Source of the DNA: Eledone cirrhosa
Taxonomy: Eukaryota
Assembly (NCBI GenBank): GCA_964016885.1
Contig: OZ024744.1
Location: 69,812,001 to 69,876,000 of the forward strand
Length of the DNA: 64,000 bases
Reading direction: 5' to 3'
In this document: positions 21,691 through 61,981 of the stretch, piece by piece
Layout of the letters: the number at the start of each line of letters is the position of its first letter
How positions within the stretch are numbered: position 1 is the first letter of the stretch
The notes under the pieces: generated by a model
Seen by the model: the letters and a program-made list of their open reading frames with translations, nothing else
Told to the model about the DNA's origin: nothing
The model's database searches: none
Translations under genes and position numbers: made by a program

Positions 21691-22241
21691 TATTAATTGT
21701 CTAACAAAACTATCTTAAAACACGTTGTTTTTTTTTATTTTAATTTCTCATTATGAATTCAGAAAATGAGAAATAATTTAATAATTATATTTCATTATCC
21801 AATAAAAATGTTGCCAACATGATTTTAATGTTGCCAAGATACTATTTTTTTTTTGTTTAGTTTGTTTTTTTTAAGTTAAATTAAAATAAATTAAATTAAT
21901 TTGATGGATACTACAGAGGAAGAACATTATCTTGTCCCCTTTTCCGTTTAAAATCCTGCGTTATATATATACATATCAATAAAAGCGTATACGGACCCAT
22001 ATACCATATGTTTGTATAAAGTTATTAATTTATTTAATCAATTTAAACGTCCGTTTAGAGGTGATAAGGATGGGTGTCAAATACCCGTTATAATTAAGAA
22101 ACAAAAACAATAGAGAGACAGAGAAAGAAAGGGAAATAAGAAAAAGTTAGACAATATATGTGTGTGTGTGTGTGTGTTTAAATTTGGTAGTTCACGACTG
22201 GGTAGAATTCCAGAAGCTGTCCGACCTCCTGTCATTCTACT

Positions 22242-22310
<69 letters not shown>

Positions 22311-22314
<4 letters not shown>

Positions 22315-22465
22315 ATAATAATACATTTGAAGACTAAAATCCAAAGACGGCTCGATAAGGATAAATATATATCAAATATATAAGAACCGTAGAGCAAATA
22401 TTTATTAAAATAACAGATTAAAGTTTAGGGTGAAAGCAGCGATTCATTGCTGGGACTTTAATCTG

Positions 22466-22471
<6 letters not shown>
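22311..22471. mobile_element. Short fold-back copy of HHR family E between (TA)n tracts
   Basis: Left arm is the reverse complement of about 53089-53205; right arm AGGGT GAAA GCAGCGATT.. is the 3' half of the family E HHR. Confidence 0.8.
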
Positions 22472-22541
<70 letters not shown>

Positions 22542-22623
22542 GAGATAAGCGGAACAAGTAAAATTCAAACAATCTTTCAAAATAAATTCAAAAAATATAA
22601 TTTAAATATTTACCTATCCATAT

Positions 22624-22704
22624 TGCTTTTACCGACGGTTTCGCCTCACACAAGATTGGAAATCCGAGGCACTTCCAATGGAAAGTTCAGCTCTTCAGAA
22701 AGCA
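22624..22704 (-). ncRNA. Type I hammerhead ribozyme with enlarged stem II region
   Basis: UGCUUU CUGAAGA [GC..49 nt with internal hairpins..GC] GAAA CCG-U-CGG UA AAAGCA; lies in a 275-bp block (22540-22813) bounded by (TA)n. Confidence 0.75.
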
Positions 22705-22811
22705 TTTTCCCTGACATAGGACATAAAGTCCCACAGCCGGCAAATATATTGCCTGCAGTGCAGCATCGAATGGGGCCGTAAACGTGATCTGATCTACACG
22801 TGAACTGGTCG

Positions 22812-22874
<63 letters not shown>

Positions 22875-22875
<1 letters not shown>

Positions 22876-23525
22876 CCAGCAGAAATTGAAAATTAGAATT
22901 GGTGCTCTGAAATAGCGATATATATATATGAATGTATATATAGTGTATTTTGCAATACGCTGTATGCTTAATTAAAAGCATTTTGAAGACCATACGCTAT
23001 TATTTTAAAGTACTGACAGTGTCAATTACTTAAATTTTCAGCAAACAGGGGAGATAAGCTGTCAGAGCTCTGTTTCGTACTTATTTGGTACTTATCATAG
23101 CTCGCTAGTCTCCCTGTTTGCTGAAAATTATGTGTGTTGGATTCTTATAGAATTCCAGTAATAATCAGGAACTGATTACACAGAGCGGTCGCCGGTCCAT
23201 TCATATATATATATCGCTATTTCAGAGCACCAATTCTAATTTTCAATTTCTGCTGGACCGGCGACGCTCTGTGTAATCAGCTCCTGCTTATTACTGGAAT
23301 TCTATAAGAATCCAACACACATCATTTTCAGCAAACAGGGAGAGTAGTGGGCTTTGATAAGTACCTACAAGTACGAAACAGAGCTCTGTCAGCTTATCAC
23401 TCCTGTTTGCTGAAAATGTAAGTAATTGACACTGTCAGTACTTTAAAACAATAGCGTATGGTCTTCAAAATACTTTTAATTAAGCATACAGTGTATTACA
23501 AATTACACTATATATACATTCATAT
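22875..23525. mobile_element. Head-to-head pair of about 320-nt HHR monomers (family B, sister of the 310-bp array)
   Basis: Left arm 22875-23199 and right arm 23198-23525 are inverted, each one unit long; (TA)n on both sides; shares blocks such as TGCTCTGAAATAGCGATAT and AGAGCGGT.GCCGGTCC with the 310-bp unit. Confidence 0.88.
23349..23395 (+). ncRNA. Type I hammerhead ribozyme with U3:A8 variant core
   Basis: GGGCU UUGAUAA GUAC-CUACAA-GUAC GAAA CAG-AGCU-CUG UC AGCUU; damaged mirror copy at 23056-23103 (-). Confidence 0.75.
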
Positions 23526-24362
23526 ATATATATATATATATATATAAACAATTAAGTTAAAAATGTACATCCACATATGTATACTGAAATACTAGTATGC
23601 ATATGAATACACACACGTATACATATGTAGATGTACCAAGTCTTTCACTGGTTACTTTACTGTGAGTATCCAGCTATTCTGTATGTAAACACACAGACAA
23701 ACCGGTTTTTAGAGTCATACTGGTTTTTGAAGAAACACCTTTCCTCTATTCTCCAGAAAGCGTCAGTCTACACACAGAATCTACACACAGAAAAGACGCA
23801 ATGTTTAGACAAATCACAGAGGCAATAAACATAAATGAACTCCAACCAAAATTAAATAGAAAACATGAATGGAATAATAACATCACAACTTACAATTAAG
23901 GACAAAATGAAAACACACACATAGAACAAACAACCAACCAGTAACATGTAAATGAACAAATAAATAAACAAATAAAAAACACACACAGACACCTGGATGT
24001 AACACATGCGCAAACTAAGCACACAACAGGCACAAAAACAAGATGGCGTAGGACAGAACAAAGGAGAGGCACAAAACAAAGAAAAGAATCCCCAGTCACT
24101 GAAGTGGTCACAGAATGTGTGACGAAAGAACTTTGACAATATATGAACAACCGTCCGGTTATGGAATCAACCAACCAACCGGAAATTTATAAATTCTTAA
24201 ATTTATAAATTTAATTTATAATAAATTGGAGTGAAAGCAACTGGTGCGTGTGTTTCTTATTGGCAACATGACCCTCCCAAAGCATAACAATATCGGTTTC
24301 AACACACATTTTCAGATAAAGTATCTTGCTAAACAAATTCAGAAACGAAATATATATATATG

Positions 24363-24397
<35 letters not shown>

Positions 24398-24401
<4 letters not shown>

Positions 24402-24575
24402 CGGAGGAGTTGTGGTAAGGAACCAGATGGACCATAACGCACCAGAGTACTCAATACTTAGAGTAGTAGAGTGGGAAATAGGAAAAAGTATGACCCCGTC
24501 GGAAGAGATCAAGCCGTTTCGACGGCTATAGCCGTTATAGTCCATCTGGTTCCTTACCACATTTCCTTTGCTTTA
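24398..24575. mobile_element. Family F fold-back element with half hammerhead
   Basis: Minus arm carries stem II ACGGCUAUAGCCGUC, GAAA and a mutated stem III; no CUGA core; the inverted segment CCATCTGGTTCCTTACCACA follows. Confidence 0.7.
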
Positions 24576-24709
24576 TATATATATATGAAGATAGACATAG
24601 AATATTCGAAAATATTCTGTATGTTTATAATAAACATTTTGAAGACCTAATCGCTATAGAATAGAATACGTCACGTATTACAATTAGATTCTCGATAAAA
24701 GCAAGGGAA

Positions 24710-25682
24710 GTAACCTACGCGTTTCATTCTTATTAGAAATCTTCAGGATTACATATCCAGTGCTTTTATCGAGAATGACACAGCTAGAGACTTATAGAAT
24801 ACTTAGCTGTGTACAGGAACTGGTTTGAAAGAGCGGTTGCCGGTCCGGCAGAAATTAGAAATTAGATTAAGTGCTCTGAAATAGCGATATATATGTGAAG
24901 ATAGACATAGAATATTCGAAAATATTCTGTATGTTTATAATAAACATTTTGAAGACCTAATCGCTATAGAATAGAATACGTCACGTATTACAATTAGATT
25001 CTCGATAAAAGCAAGGGAAGTAACCTACGCGTTTCATTCTTATTAGAAATCTTCAGGATTACATATCCAGTGCTTTTATCGAGAATGACACAGCTAGAGA
25101 CTTATAGAATACTTAGCTGTGTACAGGAACTGGTTTGAAAGAGCGGTTGCCGGTCCGGCAGAAATTAGAAATTAGATTAAATGCTCTGAAATAGCGATAT
25201 ATATGTGAAGATAGACATAGAATATTCGAAAATATTCTGTATGTTTATAATAAACATTTTGAAGACCTAATCGCTATAGAATAGAATACGTCACGTATTA
25301 CAATTAGATTCTCGATAAAAGCAAGGGAAGTAACCTACGCGTTTCATTCTTATTAGAAATCTTCAGGATTACATATCCAGTGCTTTTATCGAGAATGACA
25401 CAGCTAGAGACTTATAGAATACTTAGCTGTGTACAGGAACTGGTTTGAAAGAGCGGTTGCCGGTCCGGCAGAAATTAGAAATTAGATTAAGTGCTCTGAA
25501 ATAGCGATATATATGTGAAGATAGACATAGAATATTCGAAAATATTCTGTATGTTTATAATAAACATTTTGAAGACCTAATCGCTATAGAATAGAATACG
25601 TCACGTATTACAATTAGATTCTCGATAAAAGCAAGGGAAGTAACCTACGCGTTTCATTCTTATTAGAAATCTTCAGGATTAC
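24710..25682 (-). ncRNA. Four minimal type I HHR copies (24710-24752, 25020-25062, 25330-25372, 25640-25682)
   Basis: Exact reverse complement of the motif at 26084-26126. Confidence 0.88.
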
Positions 25683-26083
25683 ATATCCAGTGCTTTTATC
25701 GAGAATGACACAGCTAGAGACTTATAGAATACTTAGCTGTGTACAGGAACTGGTTTGAAAGAGCGGTTGCCGGTCCGGCAGAAATTAGAAATTAGATTAA
25801 ATGCTCTGAAATAGCGATATATATGTGAAGATAGACATAGAATATTCGAAAATATTCTATTCTATTCTATAGCGATTAGGTCTTCAAAATGTTTATTATA
25901 AACATACAGAATATTTTCGAATATTCTATGTCTATCTTCACATATATATCGCTATTTCAGAGCATTTAATCTAATTTCTAATTTCTGCCGGACCGGCAAC
26001 CGCTCTTTCAAACCAGTTCCTGTACACAGCTAAGTATTCTATAAGTCTCTAGCTGTGTCATTCTCGATAAAAGCACTGGATAT

Positions 26084-27986
26084 GTAATCCTGAAGATTTC
26101 TAATAAGAATGAAACGCGTAGGTTACTTCCCTTGCTTTTATCGAGAATCTAATTGTAATACGTGACGTATTCTATTCTATAGCGATTAGGTCTTCAAAAT
26201 GTTTATTATAAACATACAGAATATTTTCGAATATTCTATGTCTATCTTCACATATATATCGCTATTTCAGAGCATTTAATCTAATTTCTAATTTCTGCCG
26301 GACCGGCAACCGCTCTTTCAAACCAGTTCCTGTACACAGCTAAGTATTCTATAAGTCTCTAGCTGTGTCATTCTCGATAAAAGCACTGGATATGTAATCC
26401 TGAAGATTTCTAATAAGAATGAAACGCGTAGGTTACTTCCCTTGCTTTTATCGAGAATCTAATTGTAATACGTGACGTATTCTATTCTATAGCGATTAGG
26501 TCTTCAAAATGTTTATTATAAACATACAGAATATTTTCGAATATTCTATGTCTATCTTCACATATATATCGCTATTTCAGAGCATTTAATCTAATTTCTA
26601 ATTTCTGCCGGACCGGCAACCGCTCTTTCAAACCAGTTCCTGTACACAGCTAAGTATTCTATAAGTCTCTAGCTGTGTCATTCTCGATAAAAGCACTGGA
26701 TATGTAATCCTGAAGATTTCTAATAAGAATGAAACGCGTAGGTTACTTCCCTTGCTTTTATCGAGAATCTAATTGTAATACGTGACGTATTCTATTCTAT
26801 AGCGATTAGGTCTTCAAAATGTTTATTATAAACATACAGAATATTTTCGAATATTCTATGTCTATCTTCACATATATATCGCTATTTCAGAGCACTTAAT
26901 CTAATTTCTAATTTCTGCCGGACCGGCAACCGCTCTTTCAAACCAGTTCCTGTACACAGCTAAGTATTCTATAAGTCTCTAGCTGTGTCATTCTCGATAA
27001 AAGCACTGGATATGTAATCCTGAAGATTTCTAATAAGAATGAAACGCGTAGGTTACTTCCCTTGCTTTTATCGAGAATCTAATTGTAATACGTGACGTAT
27101 TCTATTCTATAGCGATTAGGTCTTCAAAATGTTTATTATAAACATACAGAATATTTTCGAATATTCTATGTCTATCTTCACATATATATCGCTATTTCAG
27201 AGCACTTAATCTAATTTCTAATTTCTGCCGGACCGGCAACCGCTCTTTCAAACCAGTTCCTGTACACAGCTAAGTATTCTATAAGTCTCTAGCTGTGTCA
27301 TTCTCGATAAAAGCACTGGATATGTAATCCTGAAGATTTCTAATAAGAATGAAACGCGTAGGTTACTTCCCTTGCTTTTATCGAGAATCTAATTGTAATA
27401 CGTGACGTATTCTATTCTATAGCGATTAGGTCTTCAAAATGTTTATTATAAACATACAGAATATTTTCGAATATTCTATGTCTATCTTCACATATATATC
27501 GCTATTTCAGAGCATTTAATCTAATTTCTAATTTCTGCCGGACCGGCAACCGCTCTTTCAAACCAGTTCCTGTACACAGCTAAGTATTCTATAAGTCTCT
27601 AGCTGTGTCATTCTCGATAAAAGCACTGGATATGTAATCCTGAAGATTTCTAATAAGAATGAAACGCGTAGGTTACTTCCCTTGCTTTTATCGAGAATCT
27701 AATTGTAATACGTGACGTATTCTATTCTATAGCGATTAGGTCTTCAAAATGTTTATTATAAACATACAGAATATTTTCGAATATTCTATGTCTATCTTCA
27801 CATATATATCGCTATTTCAGAGCACTTAATCTAATTTCTAATTTCTGCCGGACCGGCAACCGCTCTTTCAAACCAGTTCCTGTACACAGCTAAGTATTCT
27901 ATAAGTCTCTAGCTGTGTCATTCTCGATAAAAGCACTGGATATGTAATCCTGAAGATTTCTAATAAGAATGAAACGCGTAGGTTAC
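26084..27986 (+). ncRNA. Seven minimal type I HHR copies (26084, 26394, 26704, 27014, 27324, 27634, 27944; 43 nt each)
   Basis: GUAAUC CUGAAGA U-UUCU-AAUA-AGAA-U GAAA CGCG UA GGUUAC; stem I continued by AUUCUCGAUAAAAGCA / UGCUUUUAUCGAGAAU. Confidence 0.9.
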
Positions 27987-28143
27987 TTCCCTTGCTTTTA
28001 TCGAGAATCTAATTATAATACGTGACGTATTCTATTCTATAGCGATTAGGTCTTCAAAATGTTTATTATAAACATACAGAATATTTTCGAATATTCTATG
28101 TCTATCTTCACATATATATCGCTATTTCAGAGCATTTAATCTA

Positions 28144-28194
<51 letters not shown>

Positions 28195-28198
<4 letters not shown>

Positions 28199-28366
28199 AT
28201 GACTCCGACGGCAGACCTCAAGCCGTTTCGACGACTATAGCCGTCGAAACGGCTTGAGCTCTGCCGTCGGGGGTCATACTTTCTCCTATTACCCACTCTA
28301 CTACCCTAAGTATTGAGTACTCTGGTGCGTTATGGTCCATCTGGTTCCTTACCACAACTCTTCCGT

Positions 28367-28370
<4 letters not shown>
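28195..28370. mobile_element. Family F fold-back element with half hammerhead
   Basis: Palindrome centred on CTATAG (28235-28240); plus arm GCCGUC GAAA CGGC-UUGAGCUCU-GCCG UC GGGGUCA; inverted homolog of 24398-24535. Confidence 0.75.
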
Positions 28371-28434
<64 letters not shown>

Positions 28435-29058
28435 ATATAGAAATAAACACACAAAGAAGTATTTTGAATTACATGGGTTGAAAACCACTTTGGTGCAATG
28501 CATATAATCTACGAAATAATGGAACATACATAACAACCGGAAAAGGTGAATTAAAATGTACTAACCGAATCAATAACTATTAAACTCCTGGACAAACTAC
28601 TGATAGAGTTTGCTTCGCCAAAAATTAGTGGCTGTGTCATAGTATCCCAGGGCTTCTCAACAGGAGCAAGGATTATATGAACAGCACACATAGAGATAAT
28701 TTAGGTAACTAAATATCGCACGTGGTATAGTAAGAGAACAAGTGAAACCATGTACGACAAACAGCACTTGGTGGCGTGAGTGGATCGTAAAACGGCTAGA
28801 AAGGGCAACCTAAAGGCTCAGCAAACAATGAGAGAATATATATATACATACAATTTATGTAAGCCATGAGAGACTGGTAGAAGTATCTATAAGGTAATAC
28901 CCATTATAATTAAGAAACAAAAAGAAAAAAAGAAAAACAAAGGAACTCGGTAAGCAAAAGAGGCAAAGATAAGAAAGCAGGTGATAAACAAGGATAACTA
29001 AATGTTTCTGCTATTGAATCTTTTCGGAACCTCCATTTACTGGAAGATATTGTTTATA

Positions 29059-32930: not shown

Positions 32931-33871
32931 TACCACTTTGTCGCGGGTGGGACCAATCCAGTTGACCACCGAGTCCATTGTCATGATCAAACCGCCACCC
33001 TCCTTCAAAAACGAAGGAGAGGCGGTTTTCCTTTGTGTGATAGCTATGGCGAAAGAGGTTGTATGGTGGACAAGGTTGAAAGGGCTGAGATCAGACACCT
33101 TTCTCTCCGGCCAACAACTGATTCTTTTTTTCAAATACCACTTTGGAAGAAGAATCAGGATGGAGAGAGAGGTGCTGTACCCCAGCAAGTTTTATGAAAG
33201 GTGGGTGAAAGTGGCGAGAATGGCCCGAGTGAATGGGCCTTCTCTCTATATCAGCCTGTAGGTTGAGGAAAAGGAGGAGGAGAGGAAAGGAGTACAAGCT
33301 CTTCGTACTCCTGGAGATGAGGGTTGCACATTTTTTTCGGGGGTCTGTGTTACCCATATAAACTGTCTCCCTCTATTGGGGAAAATCGACTAACTTTTAA
33401 ATTCCATCTGTGATAACATTTTACACGTTTTTATTGTATGTAAACTTCCCCCTTTGTATTTGTCCCCTTCTTTTGTGCCCCTGTGGCTAATAAAGAAATA
33501 TATCTATACCACTTTAGAAGAAGAATCAGGATGGAGAGAGAGGTGCTGTACCCCAGCAAGTTTTATGAAAGGTGGGTGAACGTGGCCTAATGGCCCGAGT
33601 GAATGGCCCTTCTCTCTATATCAGCCTGTAGGTTGAGGAAAAGGAGGAGGAGAGGAAAGGAGTACAAACTCTTCGTACTCCTGGAGATGAGGGTTGCACA
33701 TTTTTTCGGGGGTATGTGTTACCCATATGAAATGTCTCCCCCTATTGGGGCAAATCGATTAATTTTTAAATTGCATTTGTGATAGTATTTTACACGTTTT
33801 TATTGTATGTAAACTTCCCCCTTTGTATTTATCCCCTTCTTTTGTGCCCCTGTGGCTAATAAAGAACAGCC

Positions 33872-35950
33872 TTGGGCCAGTTTTTTGTCGCGAAGCACGA
33901 AGGTTGCGTTGTCCGAAGTAAAATACGTGCTCTAGGAAACGAGGGGCCCAAAGCTGTTAGCTGGGCCCGCGTGACAGAAGCCAAAAGAGGGATTAGATCC
34001 ACTATCCGGTCTTTGCGAGTCCAGGATGGACGGGTGATCTTTGAACCTAAGCAGATGTGTGAGGCCTTTAAAAGGCGCTTTACCCGATTGTTCGGGAGGG
34101 GCGGGGGGCCGGATGGGGATGTGGACTTCAATCCATACCTCGACGGCCTGCCGCGTCTTTCGGACGAGGAGGCGAAGTCCTGCGAGGAGCCGATTTCAGT
34201 TGCTGAGATAAAGGTGGTGCTGAGCCGATGCGGCAAACGCAAATCCCCGGGTCTCGATGGTCTTCCATACGAACTATATCTAGCTATGCCGGACTTGTTC
34301 CCCGATCTCCTCGAGGCGGTCTACTGCAACTGGCAACAGAAGGGGAGAATTCCCTGTTCTGTAACCAAGGGCGTAGTCTCGCTAGTGAGGAAGAACGAGG
34401 ACAAGGGGGACGAAATAAGGAATTTCAGGCCCATAACTCTGCTAAATGCAGAGTTAAAGATTTTGGCCAAGGTGTTAGCAAAGAGGTTGGCGTTTGTCGT
34501 GGGCAACCTGGTGGGAGATGCGCAGACATGTGCTATCCCGTCCAGGTCCATCCACGACAACCTCCACCTTATGCGATACATTATAGAGAGGGGTGGGAAC
34601 GAACCTGGCTTAGGTGGGGCCCTGATCAACTTGGATCAATATAAGGCGTTCAATAGGGTCTACCATGGTTACCTGGATGCGGTGCTAGCGGCGGCAGGTT
34701 TCGGACCCGTTTTCAGGGGCTGGATCAGTGCCATGCACAGCAGCCGCATCTGCTCTAGAGTCAAGGTAAACGGCTACCTCTCGGAGCCGTTCGAAATCAC
34801 GCGGTCCATCCGACAAGGGTGCCCTCTCTCCTCCCTTCTTTATGTATTGGCCCTCGAGCCACTGATGCGGAAGTTGGAGTTGTTGCAGGGCATCCCTTTG
34901 GAACTGGGATTGCGGAAAGCGGTGTCGGCCTACGCCGATGACGTAACAGTAATGATGTCGACCGCCTCGGAAATCGAGGCGATCGGCACCTTACTGGAGG
35001 AGTACCAAAGGTTTACAGGACAAGTCGACCGGGACAAGTCGATCGGGTTGCAACTCGGCACGTGGAGGGGCAAATCGATGCCCTCCGATTGCGTCGCCGG
35101 ACGCTGGACGGAAGGCCAGGTGAGGTTGCTCGGGGTCTGGTTCGGACCAGACCTCCAGGTGGAGAAGAACTGGGGTGAGGTAACGAACAGGGTGTTTGCA
35201 CTAACCCAGAAGTGGACCGAGTGCAAACTATCCCTGAAAGGTCGGGCGGAGGTGGCGAACATTTATATAGCGTCCGTCATCTACTACCGCCTGACCGTCG
35301 TGCCTGCCCAAGGGGAACGCTCACCAAAATGGAGCGCGCACTCTTCCAATTCCTTTGGAAGAAGCGGGCCCCTTTGGTGAGGAGATCCATCTGCGAAAGG
35401 AGGGCTGGGGATTCCGTAGCTGCCTATGCGTAAACACGCATTAAGGCTACGGCACCTCCAGGTATTCCTCACCGGTCAACCGGTGTGGGACCCGTTGTGA
35501 GACGAACCTTTCCGAGACTCGTTTCACTCACCAAGCTGCAATCCTGGGTCAAGCAAAGACCGAGAAAACTGGGCGCCTGGCACACCGACATTCTATAGAG
35601 GGCTGGTACGCAGCAGGTGCCACAACGCCCTCGAAGAAGCCCTAGGAAGAGGAAGACGGACTGGCCAGCCTGTTCGGTAGGACATTTAGCCCGGGACCCA
35701 TGGACAACTTCCAGAGGTCCCTGGCCTGGCAGTGCTACCGAGGGGCTCTGCCCGTTCGAGAAAAGCTCTACAGACACGGGCGCCCGGGTAGGGGCCCCTC
35801 GAAAAAGATCTGTCCCAGATGCGTGCGCGACGAGGAAACCGTCACGCATGCATTGGTACACTGCCCGGGCGTCGCCGATCTGTGGGGCTAAGTCGAACGA
35901 CTGTTGTCACGGGTAGGACCTATCCGGTTGACCACCGAGTCCATTATAAC
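33872..35950 (+). pseudogene. Tx1/L1 ORF2 reverse transcriptase, disrupted
   Basis: KSPGLDGLPYE, FRPITLLN, RQGCPLS, AYADD; frameshift near 35310; C-terminal CPRC..HALVHC. Confidence 0.9.
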
Positions 35951-36349
35951 TATTGAGGACTTTATTGTTAATTTCATATTTTTTATCTGTTTTTTTACTC
36001 GTTCTTTTGTGTAAACTCCCCCCTTTGTATTTGTCCCCTCCTTTTGCGTACTCGTGGCAATAAATAGAAACATATCTATCTATCTATAAGTCCACGATTC
36101 GGTCTTTGAAGGACCAAGACGGACGCGTGATACGTGAGTCGAAGCAGATGTGCGCGGTCTTTCAGCGGCACTTTGCTCAACTGTTCGGGCAGGGCGGCGC
36201 GCCGGGAGGGGCTATGGATTTAGGTCCATACTTTAGGTCCATACTGCGAAAGGCCGATTTCAGCCGCTGAGATAGGGGACGCGCTGAGCCAATGCGGCAA
36301 ACGCAAATCTCCAGGTCCTGACGGTCCACCCTACGAATTTTACGTAGCA

Positions 36350-38116
36350 ATGCCGCACTTGTTCTCCGGTCTCCTGGAAGCGGTCAACTGCAACTGGCAG
36401 CAGAAAGGGAGAATTTCCAGTTCTGTGACCAAGGGCGTAGTCACACTTGTCAGGAAGGACGAGAATAAGGAGGATGACATAGGCAACTTCCGGCCCATAA
36501 CTCAGATTTTGGCCAAGGTGTTGGCAAAGAGGCTGGCGCTTGTCGTCGAAAACCTGGTAGGAGAAGCGCAGACATGCGAAATCCCGACCAGGTCCATACA
36601 CAACAACCTCCACCTCATGCGATACATCATAGAGAGGGTAGGGTGTAAACCCGGCTTCGGTGGGGCTCTGATCAACTTGGATCAGTCTAAGGCTTTTGAT
36701 ATGGTTGACCATCGTTACCTGGATGCGGTGCTCGAGGCGGCAGGCTTCGGACCCGATTTCAGGGATTGGATTGCTGCAATGCACAGCAGCAACATCTGCT
36801 CAAGGGTCAAGGTGAACGGCTACCTCCCGGAACCGTTCCATATCACGCGATCCATCCGACAGGGGTGTCCTCTCTCCTCCCTTCTGTACGTACTGACTGT
36901 CGAGCCACTACTGCGGAAGTTGAAGATATTGCAGGGCATTTCTTTGGAACCGGGACTGCGAAAAGCGGCATCGGACTGCGCCAACGACATGACGGTAATG
37001 GTGTCGAGCACCTATCAATTCGGGGAATACGAAAGGTTCAAAGGAGCGAAGCTGAACCGGGACAAATCCGTCGGTTTGCAACTCGGCACGTGGAGAGGCA
37101 AACCGATGCCTTCCGATGGCGTCATCGGACGCTGGACGGAAGGACCGGTAAAGCTGCTCGGGGTCTGGTTTGGTCCGGACCTCCAAGTGGAGAAGAACTG
37201 GAACGAGGTGACGGCCAAGGTGTTTGCGCTCACCCAGAAGTGGGCCGAGTGCAAACTATCCTTGAAAGTTCGAGCGGAGGTGGCGAACACTTTTATAGCG
37301 TGCGTCATCTACTACCGCTTGACCGTCGTGCCTTGTCCAGCCAAAACGCTCGCCAAAATGGAGCGCGCGCTCTTCCAATTCTTTTGGAAGAAACGGGCTT
37401 CTTTGATGAGAAGATCCATCTGCTGCCAACACCCTTCAAACGGAGGGCTGGGGGTACCGTGGCTGACGATGCGCAAACACGCGCTCAGGCTGCGGCACCT
37501 CCACGTATTCCTCACCGGACAATCGGTGTGGGCCCCGTTCGTGAGGCGAGCCTTCCCACGACTCGTCTCGCTGACCGAACTGAAGTCCTGGGTCAAGCAA
37601 AGACCGAGGAAAATGGGCGACTGGCACATCGAATGTGCTCAGGCGCTCACAGTCCTCTTGCAAACGAACCCAGCGATCAGTGGAGACTCCACTTCGTCAT
37701 TCTATAGAGGGTTGATCCGCAGCAAGTGCGACGACGCGCTCGTAGAAACTCTAGGCGTAGAGGAGGACGAACTGGCCAGTCTGTTCGGTAAGACCTTCCG
37801 CCTGGGACCGATGGACAACTTCCAAAAGTTGTGCTACCGAGGAGCTCTACCAGTTCGAGACAAGCTCCTCAGACACGGGCGCCCGGGCAGGGACCCTTCG
37901 AAAAAGATCTGTCCGAGATGCGTGCGCGACGAGGAAAGCGTCGCGCACGCATTTGTACACTGCCCGCGCGGTACCGATCTGTGGGGCTATGTAGAACGAC
38001 TATTGTCGCGGGTGGGACGAATCCGGTTGACCACCGAGTCCATTGTCATGATCAAACCGCCACCTTCCTTCAAAAACGAAGGAGAGGCGGTTTTCCTATG
38101 TTCAACCCCTATGTAA
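36350..38116 (+). pseudogene. Tx1/L1 ORF2 RT and C-terminal zinc knuckle, catalytically dead
   Basis: LDQSKAFD, RQGCPLS; YADD replaced by CAND; small deletions relative to the 59954 copy. Confidence 0.9.
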
Positions 38117-47150: not shown

Positions 47151-47334
47151 TACCGCTGTAATTGTTGTAGAAGAAACAGGAAGACAACAACTGGAAAGTT
47201 TGATTTCCATCTTCCCATATAAGGAATTACCCCTTGAAAAGTTCGGCTATTTATTACCACGCTAAAAATTCTAATTTAGTAGAGAAATAGCCTTCGAAAC
47301 GGATTGAGCTCTGCCGTCGGGGTTAAACATTTTC

Positions 47335-47423
<89 letters not shown>

Positions 47424-47709: not shown

Positions 47710-50700
47710 CTAGCAGTTTAGCCCGGCGTTGCTCGGGCTTGTTCATTTGCTATGAACAGTTGCATACAGGTAAACGTAGCTTGAAAGCGCATGAGCTTAT
47801 CAATTAAGTGGATAAAGCAGTTCAACCGGTTATTAAATGTTACGAACCAATTAGCATTTTCGACAATCAATGATGGGTTAATAATCTTCCAATAACGAAT
47901 TTAGCAGACCAAAGTTGCAAAATGGTGTCCCTCATGCCGCTGGGGGTCAGATCTGTCCGCTATGGGTGACCCTACCAGTTTTCCAGACGGCATAGCTCCA
48001 ACACCTCCAACACCTGCACCAACATCTATAGCACTTCTTTGTAGACGATATTGCGTGTCATCCCTTGAGGAGTGTAAGCAAAAAGTCCATTCCTGCTTCC
48101 TATGCGGGAACAGGCAACATAAAGTTGGCCATTGGAGAAGCATGGCTCCCCCAAATAGATGCCCGCCACCGACAATGCTTGCCCTTGTGACTTGTTAATG
48201 GACATGGCAAAACATGGTCTCACCGGGAATTGGAATCGCCGGAAATCGAACGGGATATCTGACGCCGGGGGGAAAAGGTTCATCCTTGGAATGAAAACAT
48301 TCTCCCCTCTCCCGCACCCCGTTACCATGGTGGCCTCAATCAAGTAGGGCGTCAGTGACTTGACGACCATGCGAGAACCGTTGCACTGCTTTGGTGGACG
48401 CAAGTTCCTTATTAGCATAATGGGACAGCCAACCCTAAGCTTAAGAATGTGAGGTGAGAGCCCTGGGGGCTCAAGGGAATTTAATAACTCAACCGAATAA
48501 TTAATGATATCGTCGGGGTCTGACGTCCGGTCGATAGATTTGAAGATGTGTTCTTTACCGGGAATCTTCTCAATCAGACGGTCGTTCATAAAATTAACCA
48601 TGGTATTTTTCGGAGCAAGGATGGCTCTTTCGCTGAGCCAATCGAGGTTTTTAAAGTTAGATGAGACATTAGGAAAAACTGATTCCCAAAGGTCAGAAGG
48701 GCTGCTCCCAATGTTGCACATGGAGTCGATTGCTATGCCACCCTTGTCATCCGCAGGGACCTTGCCCTCACTAAGTGCTAAAATATTCTGAGCAAAATGC
48801 TGCAGTAATGTTGTCACCATGCAAATGAGCACGCATATTTGTGCTCAGGTACAAACTCTTCACCTGGAGTCACAACATGGACGACTTAAGGCAGGCACGC
48901 ACTTCATCAGCTCTTGTCCCTTTGGGAATGACAGGCAGCGTTTGCCGAAAATCCCCTGATAGCAGAAGGGTTACGCCACCCATAGGAGCCGTATAATCCC
49001 TAATGTCTTTCAGGGTCCTGTCCAATGCCTCAAGGGCACCCTTGTGTGCCATTGTACACTCATCCCAAACAAAGAGGCAACATTTTTTGAGAACCAGAGC
49101 TTCGTGTGAACTCTTGCTGATATTGCATGTTGGTGTCTCAGTTTTTACTAAATCCAAGGGTAGTTTAAAGGTTGAATGTGCTGTCCTGCCTCCCGGCAGC
49201 AAAGTAGCAGCGATCCCAATCGATGCAACGGCCAACGCAATTTTTTTCTCCTGGCGAATCTTAGCGAGAATCAATTTCGTTACAAATGTTTTTCCGGTAC
49301 CCCCAGGAGCATCGAGAAAGTAAATACCCCGAGTCTGATTTTTAACCGCGTCAATGATAGTTAAATAGGCCAACCTTTGGTCCGACAGAAGTTTGGGCTC
49401 ATTTTCCTCTAAGTATTGGGAAAGAGATTCGATGTCAAATGCGGTTTCCCGCAACAAATCCGGGGCCAACGTGTTAGCTTCCTCTCTGACGGTTGATGGC
49501 AAGCCATACGTCGCCAACTCACTCCCACCCATGTCGAGGAGGGCGTCCTCGATATCAATGAGTGCCCTGTTGTAGATAATGTCGCCGTAACCAACTTCCA
49601 CTGAAGTATACTGCAGATGAGCTAGGCGCAGGAAGTCCTCAGACATGAAGTCTCTGTACTTGACCCATAAATATTTGAGATCACCCAATTCACACTTTTG
49701 AAGCAAAATGGCAAAGAGTTCCCGTAGACCTTTAGGTGATTTCAACAACGCACTCTCTGCTAAAGTGGAATCCCATTGCGAATCATCTTCCAAAAGACCA
49801 CGCTTAAAGCAGGCTTCCCGGTACGTATCACATATTTCTCCATCAACAGTTTTGAGGTGCTGAAAACTTTGTGGGCCTACAACTTCATGCAGAAGAAGGC
49901 AGAGATGAAAGCACTCATGCTGACTTGGGGGCACAGTGTAAACCCTTCCAAGACAGCTGTCAAATTTTACACCAGGATGTCTTTCAGCAGCCTGACCTGA
50001 CTTTCTTCGCACCCAAGTGTTTTTCGACCATATAAAGTAGGATGGAACCTGGGAGTACACAATTGTTTGCGCAAATGTATCGAACTGGCAAAGTTTGAAG
50101 AAACCCGTCAGAGTGATCTCTTTCGGATCGGCGGCCAACTTGGCGGCGGTTTGGTCCGTAAAGTAAACCCTTTGCCCATTTTCCAAATGTACCGCAAGCT
50201 GTACGATGGCGGGGTGAAGTTGGTGTAGGTGTAAACCAAATAGGCACCAAAAAGCTTCATTGCTACTGATGTACCGCCCCGCCAGGTATTCTGTGACATC
50301 GTCGCTGTTATTTTCAGCTTGAAATGCGAACATTGCGGCATCAGAGCCCTTATTTAGATATTTGTATATGTATTTTATCGACTTGACGGAGTTGCAAAAC
50401 TCAACGTTGATGTGGGCGTTGAACATCTTCAAGATAGGCGGGCAGTAATGGACCACCCATCTATTGTCGACTTGACCTCCCCTTACTGTTGTGGTGAAAC
50501 CACCGTTCTCGGACCGTCTCCGCCTGTACAGGGGGTACCCGTCGCCACCAGTCTGAGTCTGGTCAACAAATATTTTTGGGTATCCCTTACTGCACGACCC
50601 CCCTTTCAGACACGTGTGATGCTCATTAGGACCCGACGCACACGGACCATGATAGCTTTGAAGATGTCATGTAATTCCTGGTCAGTTGCTGGGTTAGGGA

Positions 50701-58573: not shown

Positions 58574-61500
58574 ATGGATGTGTTAAGAGTAGGATGTTTG
58601 AATGCACGTGGCCTGGGCTCAACTTGGAAGCAAGCAAAGCTTCTAAATGACCTCAGGTCATGTGGTATAAATGTAATGGTTATCTGTGAGACTCGGATCA
58701 GCGTCGTGCGGCAGATGGCCCCTACCTTCGATGACTTTGAGGTGTATGCATCTCTCTGTCAACCTGGAGGTGGGGGTGGGGTTGTCGTACTGCTGCAAAA
58801 ACACCTGGGTCTTGCCGTACAGGTTGTGCACTCGGACCCGGAGGGTCGTTTGTTGGTGCTAGACGTTGGCAGTAGTGAAGGTGCGGCCTTGAGACTGGTC
58901 GCCGTCTACTCCCCTTTTGGAGCTGAACGGCCCGACTTCTTCCAGCGTTTGGAGACTTTTCTGGGAACGTCGCGTTCCCTGCTTCTAGTGGGGGATTAGA
59001 ATGACATCCTAGATGCACGTTGGGACTATGCAGGAGCATGTCCTAATAGAGGGGGGTGTAACAGCCTCAAGGGGTTACTCGACCGTTTTAACTTGGTCGA
59101 TAGATATCGACTAGATTTTCCAACTGTGCCTACCTGGATTTGGAGAAACAACAGTGGTCAATCTAGATCGTACTTAGATAGATTCTTAGTTAGAAGTAAG
59201 GATAGGGACATATTAAGCTGTCCAGAAATGCGCACGGTTGGCTACACGGATCACAAATTAGTGACCTGCGTAGTCAATCTCGAGAAAACACATAAACAGG
59301 GTCCCGGTTACTGGAAACTTAATTTGTCTTTACCGGCAAAAGAGACTTACAGAAACCTGGGTGCAATCGTCAACAACCGATGGTGGGCATCTCTCAAAAG
59401 AGAGATTAGAACAGAATCAATAAGTTATAGCAAGATGTTAGCTGCCGATAGGAATAGAAACGAGAAAGAATTAACAGGTAAATTAGAAGAGGCAATCAAG
59501 AGCGAAGATGTGGCCAGAGTGCTGGCATCGAGGACGGCCTTGAACCAGTTTTTCGATGCAAAGCACGAAGGCTGCGTCATTCGAAGTAAAATACGTGCTC
59601 TAGGTAATGAGGGGGCCAAAGCCGTTGGCTGGGCCCGCGTGACAGAAGCTAAGAGTGGAAATCGATCCACCATCCGGTCGTTGCAAGACGAAGATGGACG
59701 GGTGATCCGGAAGCCTAAGCAGATGTGCGAGGCCTTTCAAAGGCACTTTGCCCGATTGTTCGGGGGAGGTGAGGGTCCGGCCGGGGACGTGGATTTCGGT
59801 CCATACCTCGACGGCCTGCCGCGTCTCTCGAGCGAAGAGGCAGAGTCCTGCGAGGGACCAATCTCGGCTGATGAGATCGGAGATGCGCTGAGCCAATGCA
59901 GCAGACGCAAATCTCCAGGTCTCGATGGTATACCTTACGAACTTTAGTTAGCAATGCCGGTCTTCTTCTCCGAACTCCTCGAAGCGGTCTACTGCAATTG
60001 GCAGCAGAACGGGAGAATTCCTTGTTCTGTAGCCAAGGGCGTAGTCACGCTGGTGAGGAAGGACGAGAACAAGGGAGATAGTATAAATAATTTTCGGCCC
60101 ATAACCCTGCTAAACACAGAGTTAAAGATTTTGGCCAAGGTGTTAGCAAAGAGGTTGGCGCTTGTCGTGGGTGGCCTGGTGGGAGATGCGCAGACATGTG
60201 CTATCCCATCCAGGTCCATTCACGATAACCTCCACCTCATGCGATATATCATAGAGAGGGTTGGCAACAAACCCGGCTTCGGTGGGGCCCTGATCAACTT
60301 GGATCAGTCTAAGGCCTTCGATAGGGTCGACCATGGTTACCTGGATGCGGTGCTAGCGGCGGCTGGGTTCGGTCCTGTTTTCAGAGGCTGGATCACTGCC
60401 TTACATAGCAACCACATCTGTTCTAGGATCAAGGTGAACGACTACCTTTCGAAGCCGTTCGAAATCACACGATCCATTCGACAGGGGTGCCCTCTCTCCT
60501 CCCTTCTGTACGTATTGACTCTCGAGCCTTTACTGAGGAAGTTGGAGTTGTTGCAGGGTATCCCCCTGGAACCAGGATTGAGCAAAGCGGTGTCGGCCTA
60601 CGCCGATGACGTAACAGTAATGGTATCGACCGACTCGGAGATCGAGGCGATCGGTACCTTACTGGAGGATTACGAAAGGTTGTCAGGAGCGAAACTGAAC
60701 CGGAAAAAATCCATCGGGCTGCAACTCGGAACGTGGAGAGGCAGACCGATGCCTCCCGACGGTGTCGTCGGACACTGGACGGAGGGCCCGGTAAAGTTGC
60801 TTGGGGTCTGGTTTGGACCGGACCTCCAGGTGGAAAAGAACTGGAACGAGGTTACGAACAAGGTGTTTGCACTAACCCAGAAATGGGCCAAGTGTAAGCT
60901 GTCCCTAAAAGGCCGGGCGGAGGTGGCGAACATTTACATAGCGTCCGTCACTTACTACCGCCTGACTGTCGTGCCTTGCCCTTAGGAATCACTCACCACC
61001 ATGGAACGCATGCTCTTCCAATTTCTTTGGAAGAAGCGCCCTCCTATGGTGAGAAGATCCATCTGCTGCCAACAACCTTCGAAAGGAGGGCTGGGGATGC
61101 CGTGGTTGATGATGCGTAGGCACGCATTAAGGCTACGGCACCTACAGGTATTCCTCACTGGTCAACCGGTGTGGGCTCCGTTCGTGAAACGAGCCTTTCC
61201 GAGACTCGTCTCGCTCACCGAGCTGCAGTCCTGGGTCAAGCAAAGATCCGGAAAACTGGGAGACTGGCACACTGAGTGTGCTCAGGCGCTCAGGGCTCTC
61301 TGGCAAGCGGGCCAGGCCGTCGGTGGAGAATCCACCTCATCATTCTATAGAGGGCTGGTGGCTAGCAGGGGCGATGACACCCTTGGAGAGTCGCTGGACA
61401 TGGAAGAGGACGAACTGGCCAGCCTGTTCGGTAGGACTTTCGGCCCGGGACCAATGGACAGCTTCCAGAAGTCACTAGCCTGGCAGTGCTACCGGGGGGG

Positions 61501-61981
61501 TCTACCCGTTCGAGAGAGGCTCTACAGACACGGGCGCCCGGGCAGGGATCCCTCAAAAAAGATTTGCCCTAGATGCGTGCGTCACGAAGAAACCGTTGCG
61601 CACGCATTGGTGCAATGTCCGGGCATGGCTGATCTGTGGGGCTACGCCGAACGACTGCTGTCGCGGGTGGCGCCGATTCAATTGACCGCCGAGTCCGTGA
61701 TGACAATCAAACCGGCTCCCCTCTTCACAAAAGAAGCAAAGGCGGTTTTTCTGTGCGTAATAGCCATGTTGAAAGAGGTTGTTTGGTGGACACGATTGAA
61801 AGGTCTGAGGTCAGGCAACTTCCTCTCTGGCCATAGTCTGGTCTACTTCTTCCGATATCACTTCGGAAGAAGGATAAGAATGGAGAGAGAGGTGCTTGGC
61901 CACAGGCAGTTTTATGAAAGGTGGGTGATAGTAGCGAGAATGGCTCGTGTAAATGGGCCTTCTCTGTATACCATTCTGTAG
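58574..61981 (+). pseudogene. LINE ORF2 (APE endonuclease, RT, zinc knuckle) with three in-frame TAG stops
   Basis: LNARGL, ICETR, VGD*N, SYLDRF, TDHK; LDQSKAFDRVDH, RQGCPLS, AYADD; CPRC..HALVQC; the four ORF pieces share one frame. Confidence 0.95.

What the first reader, a model, noticed from the sequence alone, without database searches (positions are those of the whole stretch)
22875..23525. Two exact monomers cut at different points: footprint of a circular template
Seen: the left arm begins and ends in TCCA (22875 and 23196; 321 nt), while the right arm begins and ends in CATTCATATA (23198 and 23517; 319 nt). The same unit is opened at two different positions. Inference: circular permutation with short terminal redundancy is expected from reverse transcription of a circular or concatemeric RNA.
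Basis: partly seen in the sequence, partly recalled or inferred. Interest (0 to 1): 0.8.

Follow-up and report, generated by a model that had tools for sequence, protein, structure and literature searches.

The report
Penelope-style head-to-head hammerhead retrozyme insertion
This is one old copy of an abundant non-coding jumping repeat that carries a hammerhead self-cutting RNA motif and sits back-to-back in a TA microsatellite; its sister copies start at two fixed points, so the 'exact monomers' here are likely a local copying accident, and only the younger sister arrays hint that a circular RNA is the template.

Summary
In detail: TCCA at 22875/23196 (321 nt), CATTCATATA at 23198/23517 (319 nt), arms inverted, 94.6% alike. 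The unit carries a type I hammerhead (U3-A8 core, covarying with C3-G8), so it is a non-LTR retrozyme. The inference fails as stated. In 77 other loci outer ends are fixed at two sites about 30-40 nt apart (113 of 139 segments), the Penelope 'tail' plus head-to-head inversion, which an autonomous Penelope-like element in this genome also shows. Arm lengths are not enriched at one monomer (8 seen, 8.4 expected). The left start here is the only one of its kind found in the genome, and its first 60 nt copy the central 60 nt exactly, which favours local fold-back copying. Better evidence for circles comes from the young 310-bp sister family (array at 24577-28150): 26 haplotypes in 53 loci, each normally fixed in all units of both arms, and 650 passages through the cleavage site without a stop. 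One in-register mosaic (L193) argues for a linear or DNA template at times. No RNA was available. The scan noted this architecture before in other genomes.

The parts
22813..22874 (.). Left (TA)30 target microsatellite plus one extra T
22875..23199 (-). Left arm: one 321-bp retrozyme unit + 4 nt; RNA sense on the minus strand, 3' end at the (TA)n
22875..22934 (-). Outer 60 nt of the left arm (unit 0-59: tail region + internal TA tract), 100% complementary to 23198-23257. No other (TA)n-joined start here was found in the genome; the usual start is at 22885-22894 (unit 10-19)
   Evidence: (I20)
23057..23102 (-). Left-arm hammerhead, core damaged (A at position 3, GAC in place of GUC)
23198..23199 (.). 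2-nt microhomology (CA) at the head-to-head junction
   Evidence: 2 nt is the modal value in the young family, 12 of 63
23200..23253 (.). 54-nt central loop of the palindrome; its complement forms the left outer end
23198..23533 (+). Right arm: unit 59 round to the TA tract, RNA sense on the plus strand; outer end in the unit's TA tract (the family's commonest terminus)
23350..23394 (+). Type I hammerhead with complete core UUGAUAA...GAAA, palindromic helix III (AGAGCUCU), predicted cleavage after GUC at 23390/23391; set in a long hairpin 23325-23416 (z -6.1)
23534..23546 (.). Right (TA)n target
24577..25857 (-). Young 310-bp sister family, TA-started arm, 4.13 units, canonical CUGAAGA hammerhead in each full unit
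25858..28150 (+). Young 310-bp sister family, tail-started arm, 7.40 units, head-to-head with the former, ending in (TA)24

Best explanation
The locus is an old head-to-head insertion of a 321-bp hammerhead retrozyme in a (TA)n microsatellite, likely made by a Penelope-like element's reverse transcriptase priming from both target ends at two fixed internal sites of the RNA, and its one-monomer left arm with TCCA at both ends likely comes from local fold-back copying of the right arm, not from one lap round a circle. Shown: hammerhead fold with covariation; (TA)n targets; two fixed outer termini and variable inner junctions across the family; both arms of this locus share a private haplotype; the left start has no second example; its first 60 nt equal the central 60 nt. 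Inferred: (1) a Penelope endonuclease nicks (TA)n; (2) one end primes in the RNA's (UA)n tract, the other about 30-40 nt further 3' (the tail); (3) the cDNAs join by 1-5 nt of microhomology; (4) here, the strand ending in the left TA tract re-primed on the TA tract inside the 54-nt hairpin loop, copied the loop and stopped four bases into the stem, at insertion or during later repair of the (TA)n. That yields an arm of exactly one permuted monomer whatever the RNA's shape. For the family as a whole, the RNA template is probably often a ligated monomer circle read for many laps (inferred from the young sister arrays, odds about even to 60%).
For: Hammerhead: core positions 3/8 are U-A in 75 and C-G in 8 of 91 units; stem I pairs switch C-G (50) to U-A (29) of 84 and G-C (46) / A-U (16) / G-U (15) of 86. 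Termini: 113 of 139 segments in 77 loci start at unit 10-19 or 43-58; 50 of 77 loci are head-to-head, 31 of those 50 pair one end of each kind. Young family: tail starts 66 of 69 at u285 (selected for by the search pattern in most loci), opposite starts 62 of 64 at u1 (not selected). An autonomous RT + GIY-YIG element (L245, 938-aa frame) has a U3-A8 hammerhead and two fixed (TA)n-joined ends 68 nt apart, head-to-head in L250, L254, L256, L263, L089. PMC11167929 shows two internal RT starts bounding the tail and extension of both target strands; PMC8557442 describes the inverted 5' copy, 30-40-bp tail and (TA)n bias. This locus: arms share 4 rare variants, and the 25-mer holding three of them occurs only in these two arms; the start at unit 0-3 has 1 locus against 588 reverse-strand matches alone at unit 9-17; 0 of 60 differences in the duplicated segment against 20 of 266 in the rest, Fisher p 0.015, and that region is not more conserved family-wide (4.0% vs 3.8%). 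Near-symmetric palindromes (loop 60 nt or less) are enriched in the young family, 8 of 63 vs 2.75, p 0.004.
Against: The fold-back step rests on one locus and a modest p value; 45 of 778 unrelated pairs are also identical over the 45 non-TA positions of that segment. Near-symmetry is not enriched in the old family itself (9 of 33 vs 8.0). The right arm's stop 3 nt past the TA tract is left to chance. L066 is a second locus with two near-monomer arms. No nucleotide homology links the units to the Penelope element found (50 GIY-YIG loci examined, of 150 listed and 10,597 candidates), so the partner enzyme is not identified. Rfam gave no hammerhead hit for this unit and only 17.1 bits (threshold 52) for the sister unit. 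Cleavage was not tested.
Confidence: 0.62

Rival explanations
1. One reading: both arms are single laps of reverse transcriptase round a circular monomer RNA, each stopping on meeting its own start.
For: Left arm is monomer + 2-4 nt, and the right arm is monomer + 1-3 nt if synthesis is counted from the end of the TA tract. Both arms come from one template variant. Both run through the hammerhead cleavage site. L066 is similar. Retrozyme circles exist in coral, mussel and axolotl (PMC7229834).
Against: No own-start stop in either family: 6 of 58 tail arms vs 5.8 expected; TA arms 9 of 56 vs 5.6, but tail arms end in that region as often (10 of 58); old family 1 of 27 and 4 of 31. Arms reach 19 units, and at least 25 units in two loci, so the enzyme is not held to one lap. 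It does not explain why the start is unique or why 60 nt are less diverged.
Confidence: 0.15
2. Ordinary twin-primed insertion with a rare start site, and both arm lengths near one monomer by chance.
For: Arm lengths are broad (32-916 nt, median 254) and include 321-340 nt in 2 of 113. With over 1,000 loci, one or two such doubles are expected, and the locus was picked after the fact. The 2-nt junction microhomology is typical.
Against: Needs three coincidences: a start with no second example, that start within 4 nt of the arm's own inner end, and 0 of 60 differences.
Confidence: 0.2
3. Family level: templates are linear read-through multimer transcripts of homogeneous genomic arrays; no circle is needed.
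For: L193 reads X,X,Y... in both arms in register, X and Y being common family haplotypes; L176 shares one variant in register. Arm lengths within a locus correlate (rho 0.41, p 0.001). In PMC11167929 unprocessed RNA is the main substrate and hammerhead cleavage is not needed in vitro.
Against: It cannot by itself fix new mutations in every unit or lengthen arrays: 26 fixed haplotypes among 53 loci, 15 variants fixed in a single locus (about 11 events), 138 single-unit variants but only 16 at intermediate frequency; 89 discordant against 13 shared in-register sites from 4 loci. No inner junction recurs among 63 loci. The hammerhead is kept by compensatory changes although arms neither start nor end at its cut. 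L193 and L176 also fit a second arm copied from the first cDNA.
Confidence: 0.35
4. The arrays are DNA-level satellites or palindromes made by unequal crossing-over, gene conversion or assembly collapse, with no RNA step.
For: A few long arrays repeat linked variants at distant units (L158, L180), as conversion would. The window's own array is mosaic at one site. No long reads were available to check assembly.
Against: Dispersed single insertions on many contigs with two fixed ends at (TA)n and a unique inner junction each; the same anatomy as a coding Penelope element; RNA-structure covariation; single-unit variants persist unhomogenised.
Confidence: 0.04

Closest known systems
Metazoan non-LTR retrozymes (Cervera and de la Pena 2020, PMC7229834, passages read; Li, Clavereau and Pollet 2026, bioRxiv 10.64898/2026.07.22.740005, parts 1-3 of 5 read: abstract to discussion)
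   Same: Non-coding 300-350-bp, GC-poor unit with a type I hammerhead, palindromic helix III, monomers to multimers, dispersed, co-occurring with Penelope-like elements. Circle-templated tandem cDNA synthesis is their stated hypothesis.
   Different: The passages read do not describe head-to-head pairs, two fixed termini or (TA)n targeting ('inverted' occurs 0 times in the main text of PMC7229834). The old family uses a U3-A8 core. Circles were shown by northern blot there; no RNA was seen here. Supplements were not read.
Endonuclease-bearing Penelope-like elements: inverted 5'-truncated copy and tail (Craig et al. 2021, PMC8557442, passages; Arkhipova et al. 2013, PMC3846280, passages; Frangieh et al. 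2024, PMC11167929, main text parts 1-2 of 4)
   Same: Head-to-head inversion, optional 30-40-bp tail, two internal RT starts, AT-rich or (TA)n targets, microhomology junctions, hammerhead in the terminal repeat.
   Different: No ORF; the whole element is the repeat unit and arrays reach 25+ units; one of the two starts is a (UA)n tract matching the target, whereas the anole element starts without homology.
U3-A8 hammerhead variant of Schistosoma Penelope elements (Cervera and de la Pena 2014, PMC4209133, passages)
   Same: Same covariation in the catalytic core; that paper also notes dual hammerheads 100-700 bp apart on opposite strands.
   Different: Here it sits in a tandem retrozyme unit with a longer palindromic helix III, and both core types occur within one family.
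LINE-1 twin priming (recalled, no call)
   Same: Two target ends prime on one RNA; the products join by microhomology.
   Different: No poly(A); both arms cover the same sequence, can exceed one unit, and start at fixed sites.

Membership tests
Non-LTR retrozyme | Type I hammerhead with conserved core and helices I-III in the repeat unit | tested here: met
   Right arm 23350-23394; covariation in core and stem I. Below Rfam thresholds; the left-arm copy is damaged.
Non-LTR retrozyme | 150-450-bp non-coding unit, dispersed as monomers to tandem multimers | tested here: met
   321 bp; 357 exact 22-mer hits, arms up to 916 nt; sister family 19,236 exact 24-mer hits; no ORF of 150 aa or more over the locus.
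Non-LTR retrozyme | No LTR, PBS, PPT or 4-bp target duplication | tested here: inconclusive
   No terminal direct repeats seen; PBS and PPT were not searched for; target duplications cannot be read inside (TA)n.
Non-LTR retrozyme | Self-cleavage of the transcript | not testable with these tools
   Needs in vitro transcription.
Non-LTR retrozyme | Expression as circular RNA | not testable with these tools
   No RNA run was listed; only indirect haplotype evidence.
Penelope-like element insertion (non-autonomous) | Head-to-head inverted 5'-truncated copy | tested here: met
   This locus; 50 of 77 old-family loci.
Penelope-like element insertion (non-autonomous) | Two fixed 3' termini bounding a 30-40-nt tail | tested here: met
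   Unit 10-19 and 43-58 in the old family, u285 and u1-13 in the young one. This locus's left start is about 14-17 nt beyond the usual tail site.
Penelope-like element insertion (non-autonomous) | Microsatellite or AT-rich target | tested here: met
   (TA)n on both sides.
Penelope-like element insertion (non-autonomous) | Sequence shared with the terminal repeat of an autonomous partner | tested here: inconclusive
   No homology adjoining an ORF in 50 GIY-YIG loci. Shared with L245: the U3-A8 core and the terminus TTCTAAT|(AT)n.
Autonomous Penelope-like element | ORF with RT and GIY-YIG endonuclease | tested here: not met
   None at this locus; present elsewhere in the genome.

The most novel reading that the evidence does not exclude
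These retrozyme families are copied by a Penelope enzyme that primes from both ends of a cut (TA)n on one ligated monomer circle and runs many laps, so each array is a clonal print of a single circular RNA molecule, and the genome holds thousands of such prints. This would be genomic proof of rolling-circle, twin-primed retrotransposition of an animal circular RNA; this locus might be the rare case of one lap per arm.
Probability: 0.45. Interest if true: 0.72.

Novelty: new member of a known kind. Interest (0 to 1): 0.42.

Why it matters
The locus itself is an ordinary decayed copy with a local quirk. The family matters more. That Penelope enzymes move retrozymes, and that circles are the template, are published hypotheses without a shown mechanism (PMC7229834; bioRxiv 10.64898/2026.07.22.740005). 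Here the Penelope footprint is plain in about a thousand loci per family. The young family offers a direct test: haplotypes fixed within arrays, passage through the cleavage site, and rare in-register mosaics can measure how often the template was a circle, a linear multimer or the first cDNA.

Tried and rejected
Rfam scan of 22000-28500: no hit at gathering score; Hammerhead_HH9 17.1 bits on two sister units only. Sequencing runs: no RNA holder listed, which is no evidence either way. Laying X1, X2, X4, X5 gave only paralogous pieces; none spans the locus, so assembly and insertion polymorphism stay unchecked. Linear hammerhead-cut monomers as template: rejected, since 78 of 113 old arms cross the site and 4 end within 3 nt of it (about 1 expected, p 0.02; the larger excess, 31 vs 12, lies at unit 155-187 along the long hairpin); young family 650 passages, 4 of 129 ends within 4-5 nt. 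Fold-back as the general mechanism: rejected, since the TA-started arm is the longer one in 25 of 63 loci. Twister and HDV-like folds were considered from recall and dropped once the hammerhead fitted. Search for the autonomous partner: Pfam PF26215 is not in the library; GIY-YIG search found Penelope elements but no terminal-repeat homology. In one search twenty inner ends piled at u40 through a BLAST boundary artefact; one search recomputed them. Earlier-notes look-ups by place and by sequence were empty. Literature: six searches showed no paper on head-to-head retrozyme arrays or within-array haplotype tests; subscription papers and supplements were not seen.

Full report
Observation. The coordinates are exact. 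Between (TA)30 (22813-22873) and a second (TA)n (to 23546) lie two inverted copies of one 321-bp unit. Numbering the unit from 22876, the left arm runs from position 0 round to 3 (325 nt), the right arm from the unit's own TA tract (43-56) round to 59. They meet at a 2-nt overlap, CA, and are 94.6% identical. The window lies at G000:C28:69812001-69876000 of a 3.0-Gb, microsatellite-rich genome.

What the unit is. The right arm reads GGCU UUGAUAA GUAC-loop-GUAC GAAA C AGAGCUCU GUC AGCU at 23350-23394, a type I hammerhead with a palindromic helix III, inside a long hairpin (z -6.1). Rfam does not call it, but 91 genomic units show core positions 3/8 as U-A (75) or C-G (8) with 8 others, and stem I pairs that change on both sides. 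U3-A8 is a published variant of Penelope hammerheads (PMC4209133). The left copy has lost two core letters. The ribozyme strand points outward in both arms, so the pair is head-to-head. A related 310-bp family with a canonical core forms a 4.1 + 7.4-unit head-to-head array 1 kb away. This fits non-LTR retrozymes (PMC7229834; bioRxiv 10.64898/2026.07.22.740005).

An exact 22-mer from the unit's middle has 357 matches. Of the first 100, I analysed 77 distinct loci on C1 and C2; four duplicate fetches were dropped, and six listed loci already held were not re-analysed in this set. Of 139 segments, 62 start in the TA tract, 51 at unit 10-19 and 26 elsewhere. Fifty loci are head-to-head, 31 of them with one end of each kind; 23 have one segment and 4 are more complex. 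Inner ends are scattered. Arms with a normal start are 32-916 nt; 43 of 113 exceed one unit; 8 lie within 20 nt of one unit against 8.4 expected. The young family agrees: 19,236 matches, 988 exact (TA)n junctions at one site, 13 of 119 arms near a unit multiple against 15.7, no stop at the arm's own start. So termini are fixed and monomer lengths are not a family trait.

Why two cut points. Penelope-like elements often carry an inverted 5'-truncated copy and a 30-40-bp tail at one end, and favour (TA)n (PMC8557442; PMC3846280). In vitro the tail is the distance between two internal RT start sites, both target strands are extended, and hammerhead cleavage is dispensable (PMC11167929). This genome holds such elements: L245 has a 938-aa RT + GIY-YIG frame with a cysteine linker that I recall as Neptune-type, a U3-A8 hammerhead, and two (TA)n-joined ends 68 nt apart in head-to-head copies. 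Its 3' end, TTCTAAT|(AT)n, matches the old family's tail end, but there is no wider homology in the 50 loci examined, so the partner is unproven.

This locus. Both arms share four variants of 2-4% family frequency and have 6 and 12 private ones; the stretch with three of the shared variants occurs nowhere else at one mismatch. Across 37 old two-armed loci, arms share 72 of 490 rare variants against 436 of 22,178 between loci. One template variant is therefore likely, though arm-to-arm conversion could contribute. The left start is exceptional: one locus in the genome matches (TA)n joined to unit 0-3, while 588 reverse-strand matches alone join at unit 9-17. Seen as a palindrome, the locus has a 54-nt central loop (23200-23253), and the left outer end is the complement of that loop plus four stem bases. 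These 60 nt have no differences; the stem has 20 in 266 (p 0.015), and the region is not specially conserved. A strand that re-primes from the left TA tract onto the TA tract in the loop, and stops just inside the stem, would create TCCA at both ends and an arm of exactly one permuted unit. I rank this first, chance second, and one lap on a circle third. Against: 5.8% of unrelated pairs are also identical there, near-symmetry is enriched only in the young family, and L066 is a partly similar case.

Is there a circle at all? I read 74 young loci: the window array, 13 and 60 from rows 10-69. Five were dropped (L142, L148, L153, L154, L155: complex junction pieces, wrong side or incomplete sequence), and three with arms running off the fetched stretch were left out of length statistics. 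Among 53 two-armed loci with three or more full units there are 26 fixed haplotypes; 15 variants are fixed in one locus only, for example a 2-bp deletion in all 21 units of L158. There are 138 single-unit variants (0.07% per base) and 16 at intermediate frequency. In 37 of 40 loci both arms have the same majority haplotype, against a 7% chance for two random loci. Synthesis crossed the cleavage site 650 times with no pile-up of ends. A new mutation can reach every unit only through a one-unit bottleneck and re-amplification, which a ligated circle supplies; this step is inference. Results against: L193 reads X,X,Y in register in both arms and L176 shares a variant in register, which needs a linear mosaic RNA, a copy of the first cDNA, or conversion; L167 and L202 have arms of different haplotypes; the window array is mosaic at one site; arm lengths correlate. 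The sample is one contig and mostly one subfamily, chosen by its tail junction. No RNA run was listed.

Comparison and verdict. It is a new member of the non-LTR retrozymes, inserted in Penelope fashion; cleavage and circular RNA were not testable. Six paper searches showed no report of this array anatomy or of the haplotype test in retrozymes, but earlier notes of this scan describe the same anatomy in other genomes, seen only after my own tests. The stated footprint is not a footprint of a circle; the family's arrays may be.

Noticed in passing
window 24577-28150: Young 310-bp hammerhead array, 4.13 + 7.40 units head-to-head between (TA)n; mosaic at unit position 295, unlike most sister loci.
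   Followed up: yes
L193 (G000:C1:136718100-136726100): Both arms read haplotype X, X, then Y in register from their outer ends; X and Y are common family haplotypes. A direct record that both arms share one non-periodic template.
   Followed up: partly
L167, L202: The two arms carry different haplotypes; in L167 one arm switches to the other's after four units.
   Followed up: partly
L157, L180: Single arms of at least 25 units (over 7.7 kb); L180 and L158 repeat linked variants at distant units.
   Followed up: no
L245, L246, L250, L253, L254, L256: Coding Penelope-like family (RT, cysteine linker, GIY-YIG) with a U3-A8 hammerhead and a 68-nt tail; copies 95-99% alike. Old-family locus L089 sits at this element's (TA)n end.
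   Followed up: partly
L153:3654-4032: A third, more diverged unit family related to the 310-bp unit.
   Followed up: no
window 24400-24570 and 28194-28367; also 47287-47340: Two short palindromic elements of another family, each bounded by (TA)n, flank the 310-bp array; they look like further truncated head-to-head insertions.
   Followed up: no
window 7574, 45194, 47482 (+), 57023 (-): Further hammerhead-like motif matches from a loose scan; not checked.
   Followed up: no
old family, unit 155-187: Inner ends are in excess along the 3' arm of the long hairpin that holds the ribozyme (31 vs 12 expected), suggesting RT pausing.
   Followed up: partly
window 48026-50666 (-); 33863-38116, 59000-61981 (+): Split PIF1 helicase frames (Helitron-like) and RVT_1/zf-RVT frames of LINE-type elements.
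   Followed up: no
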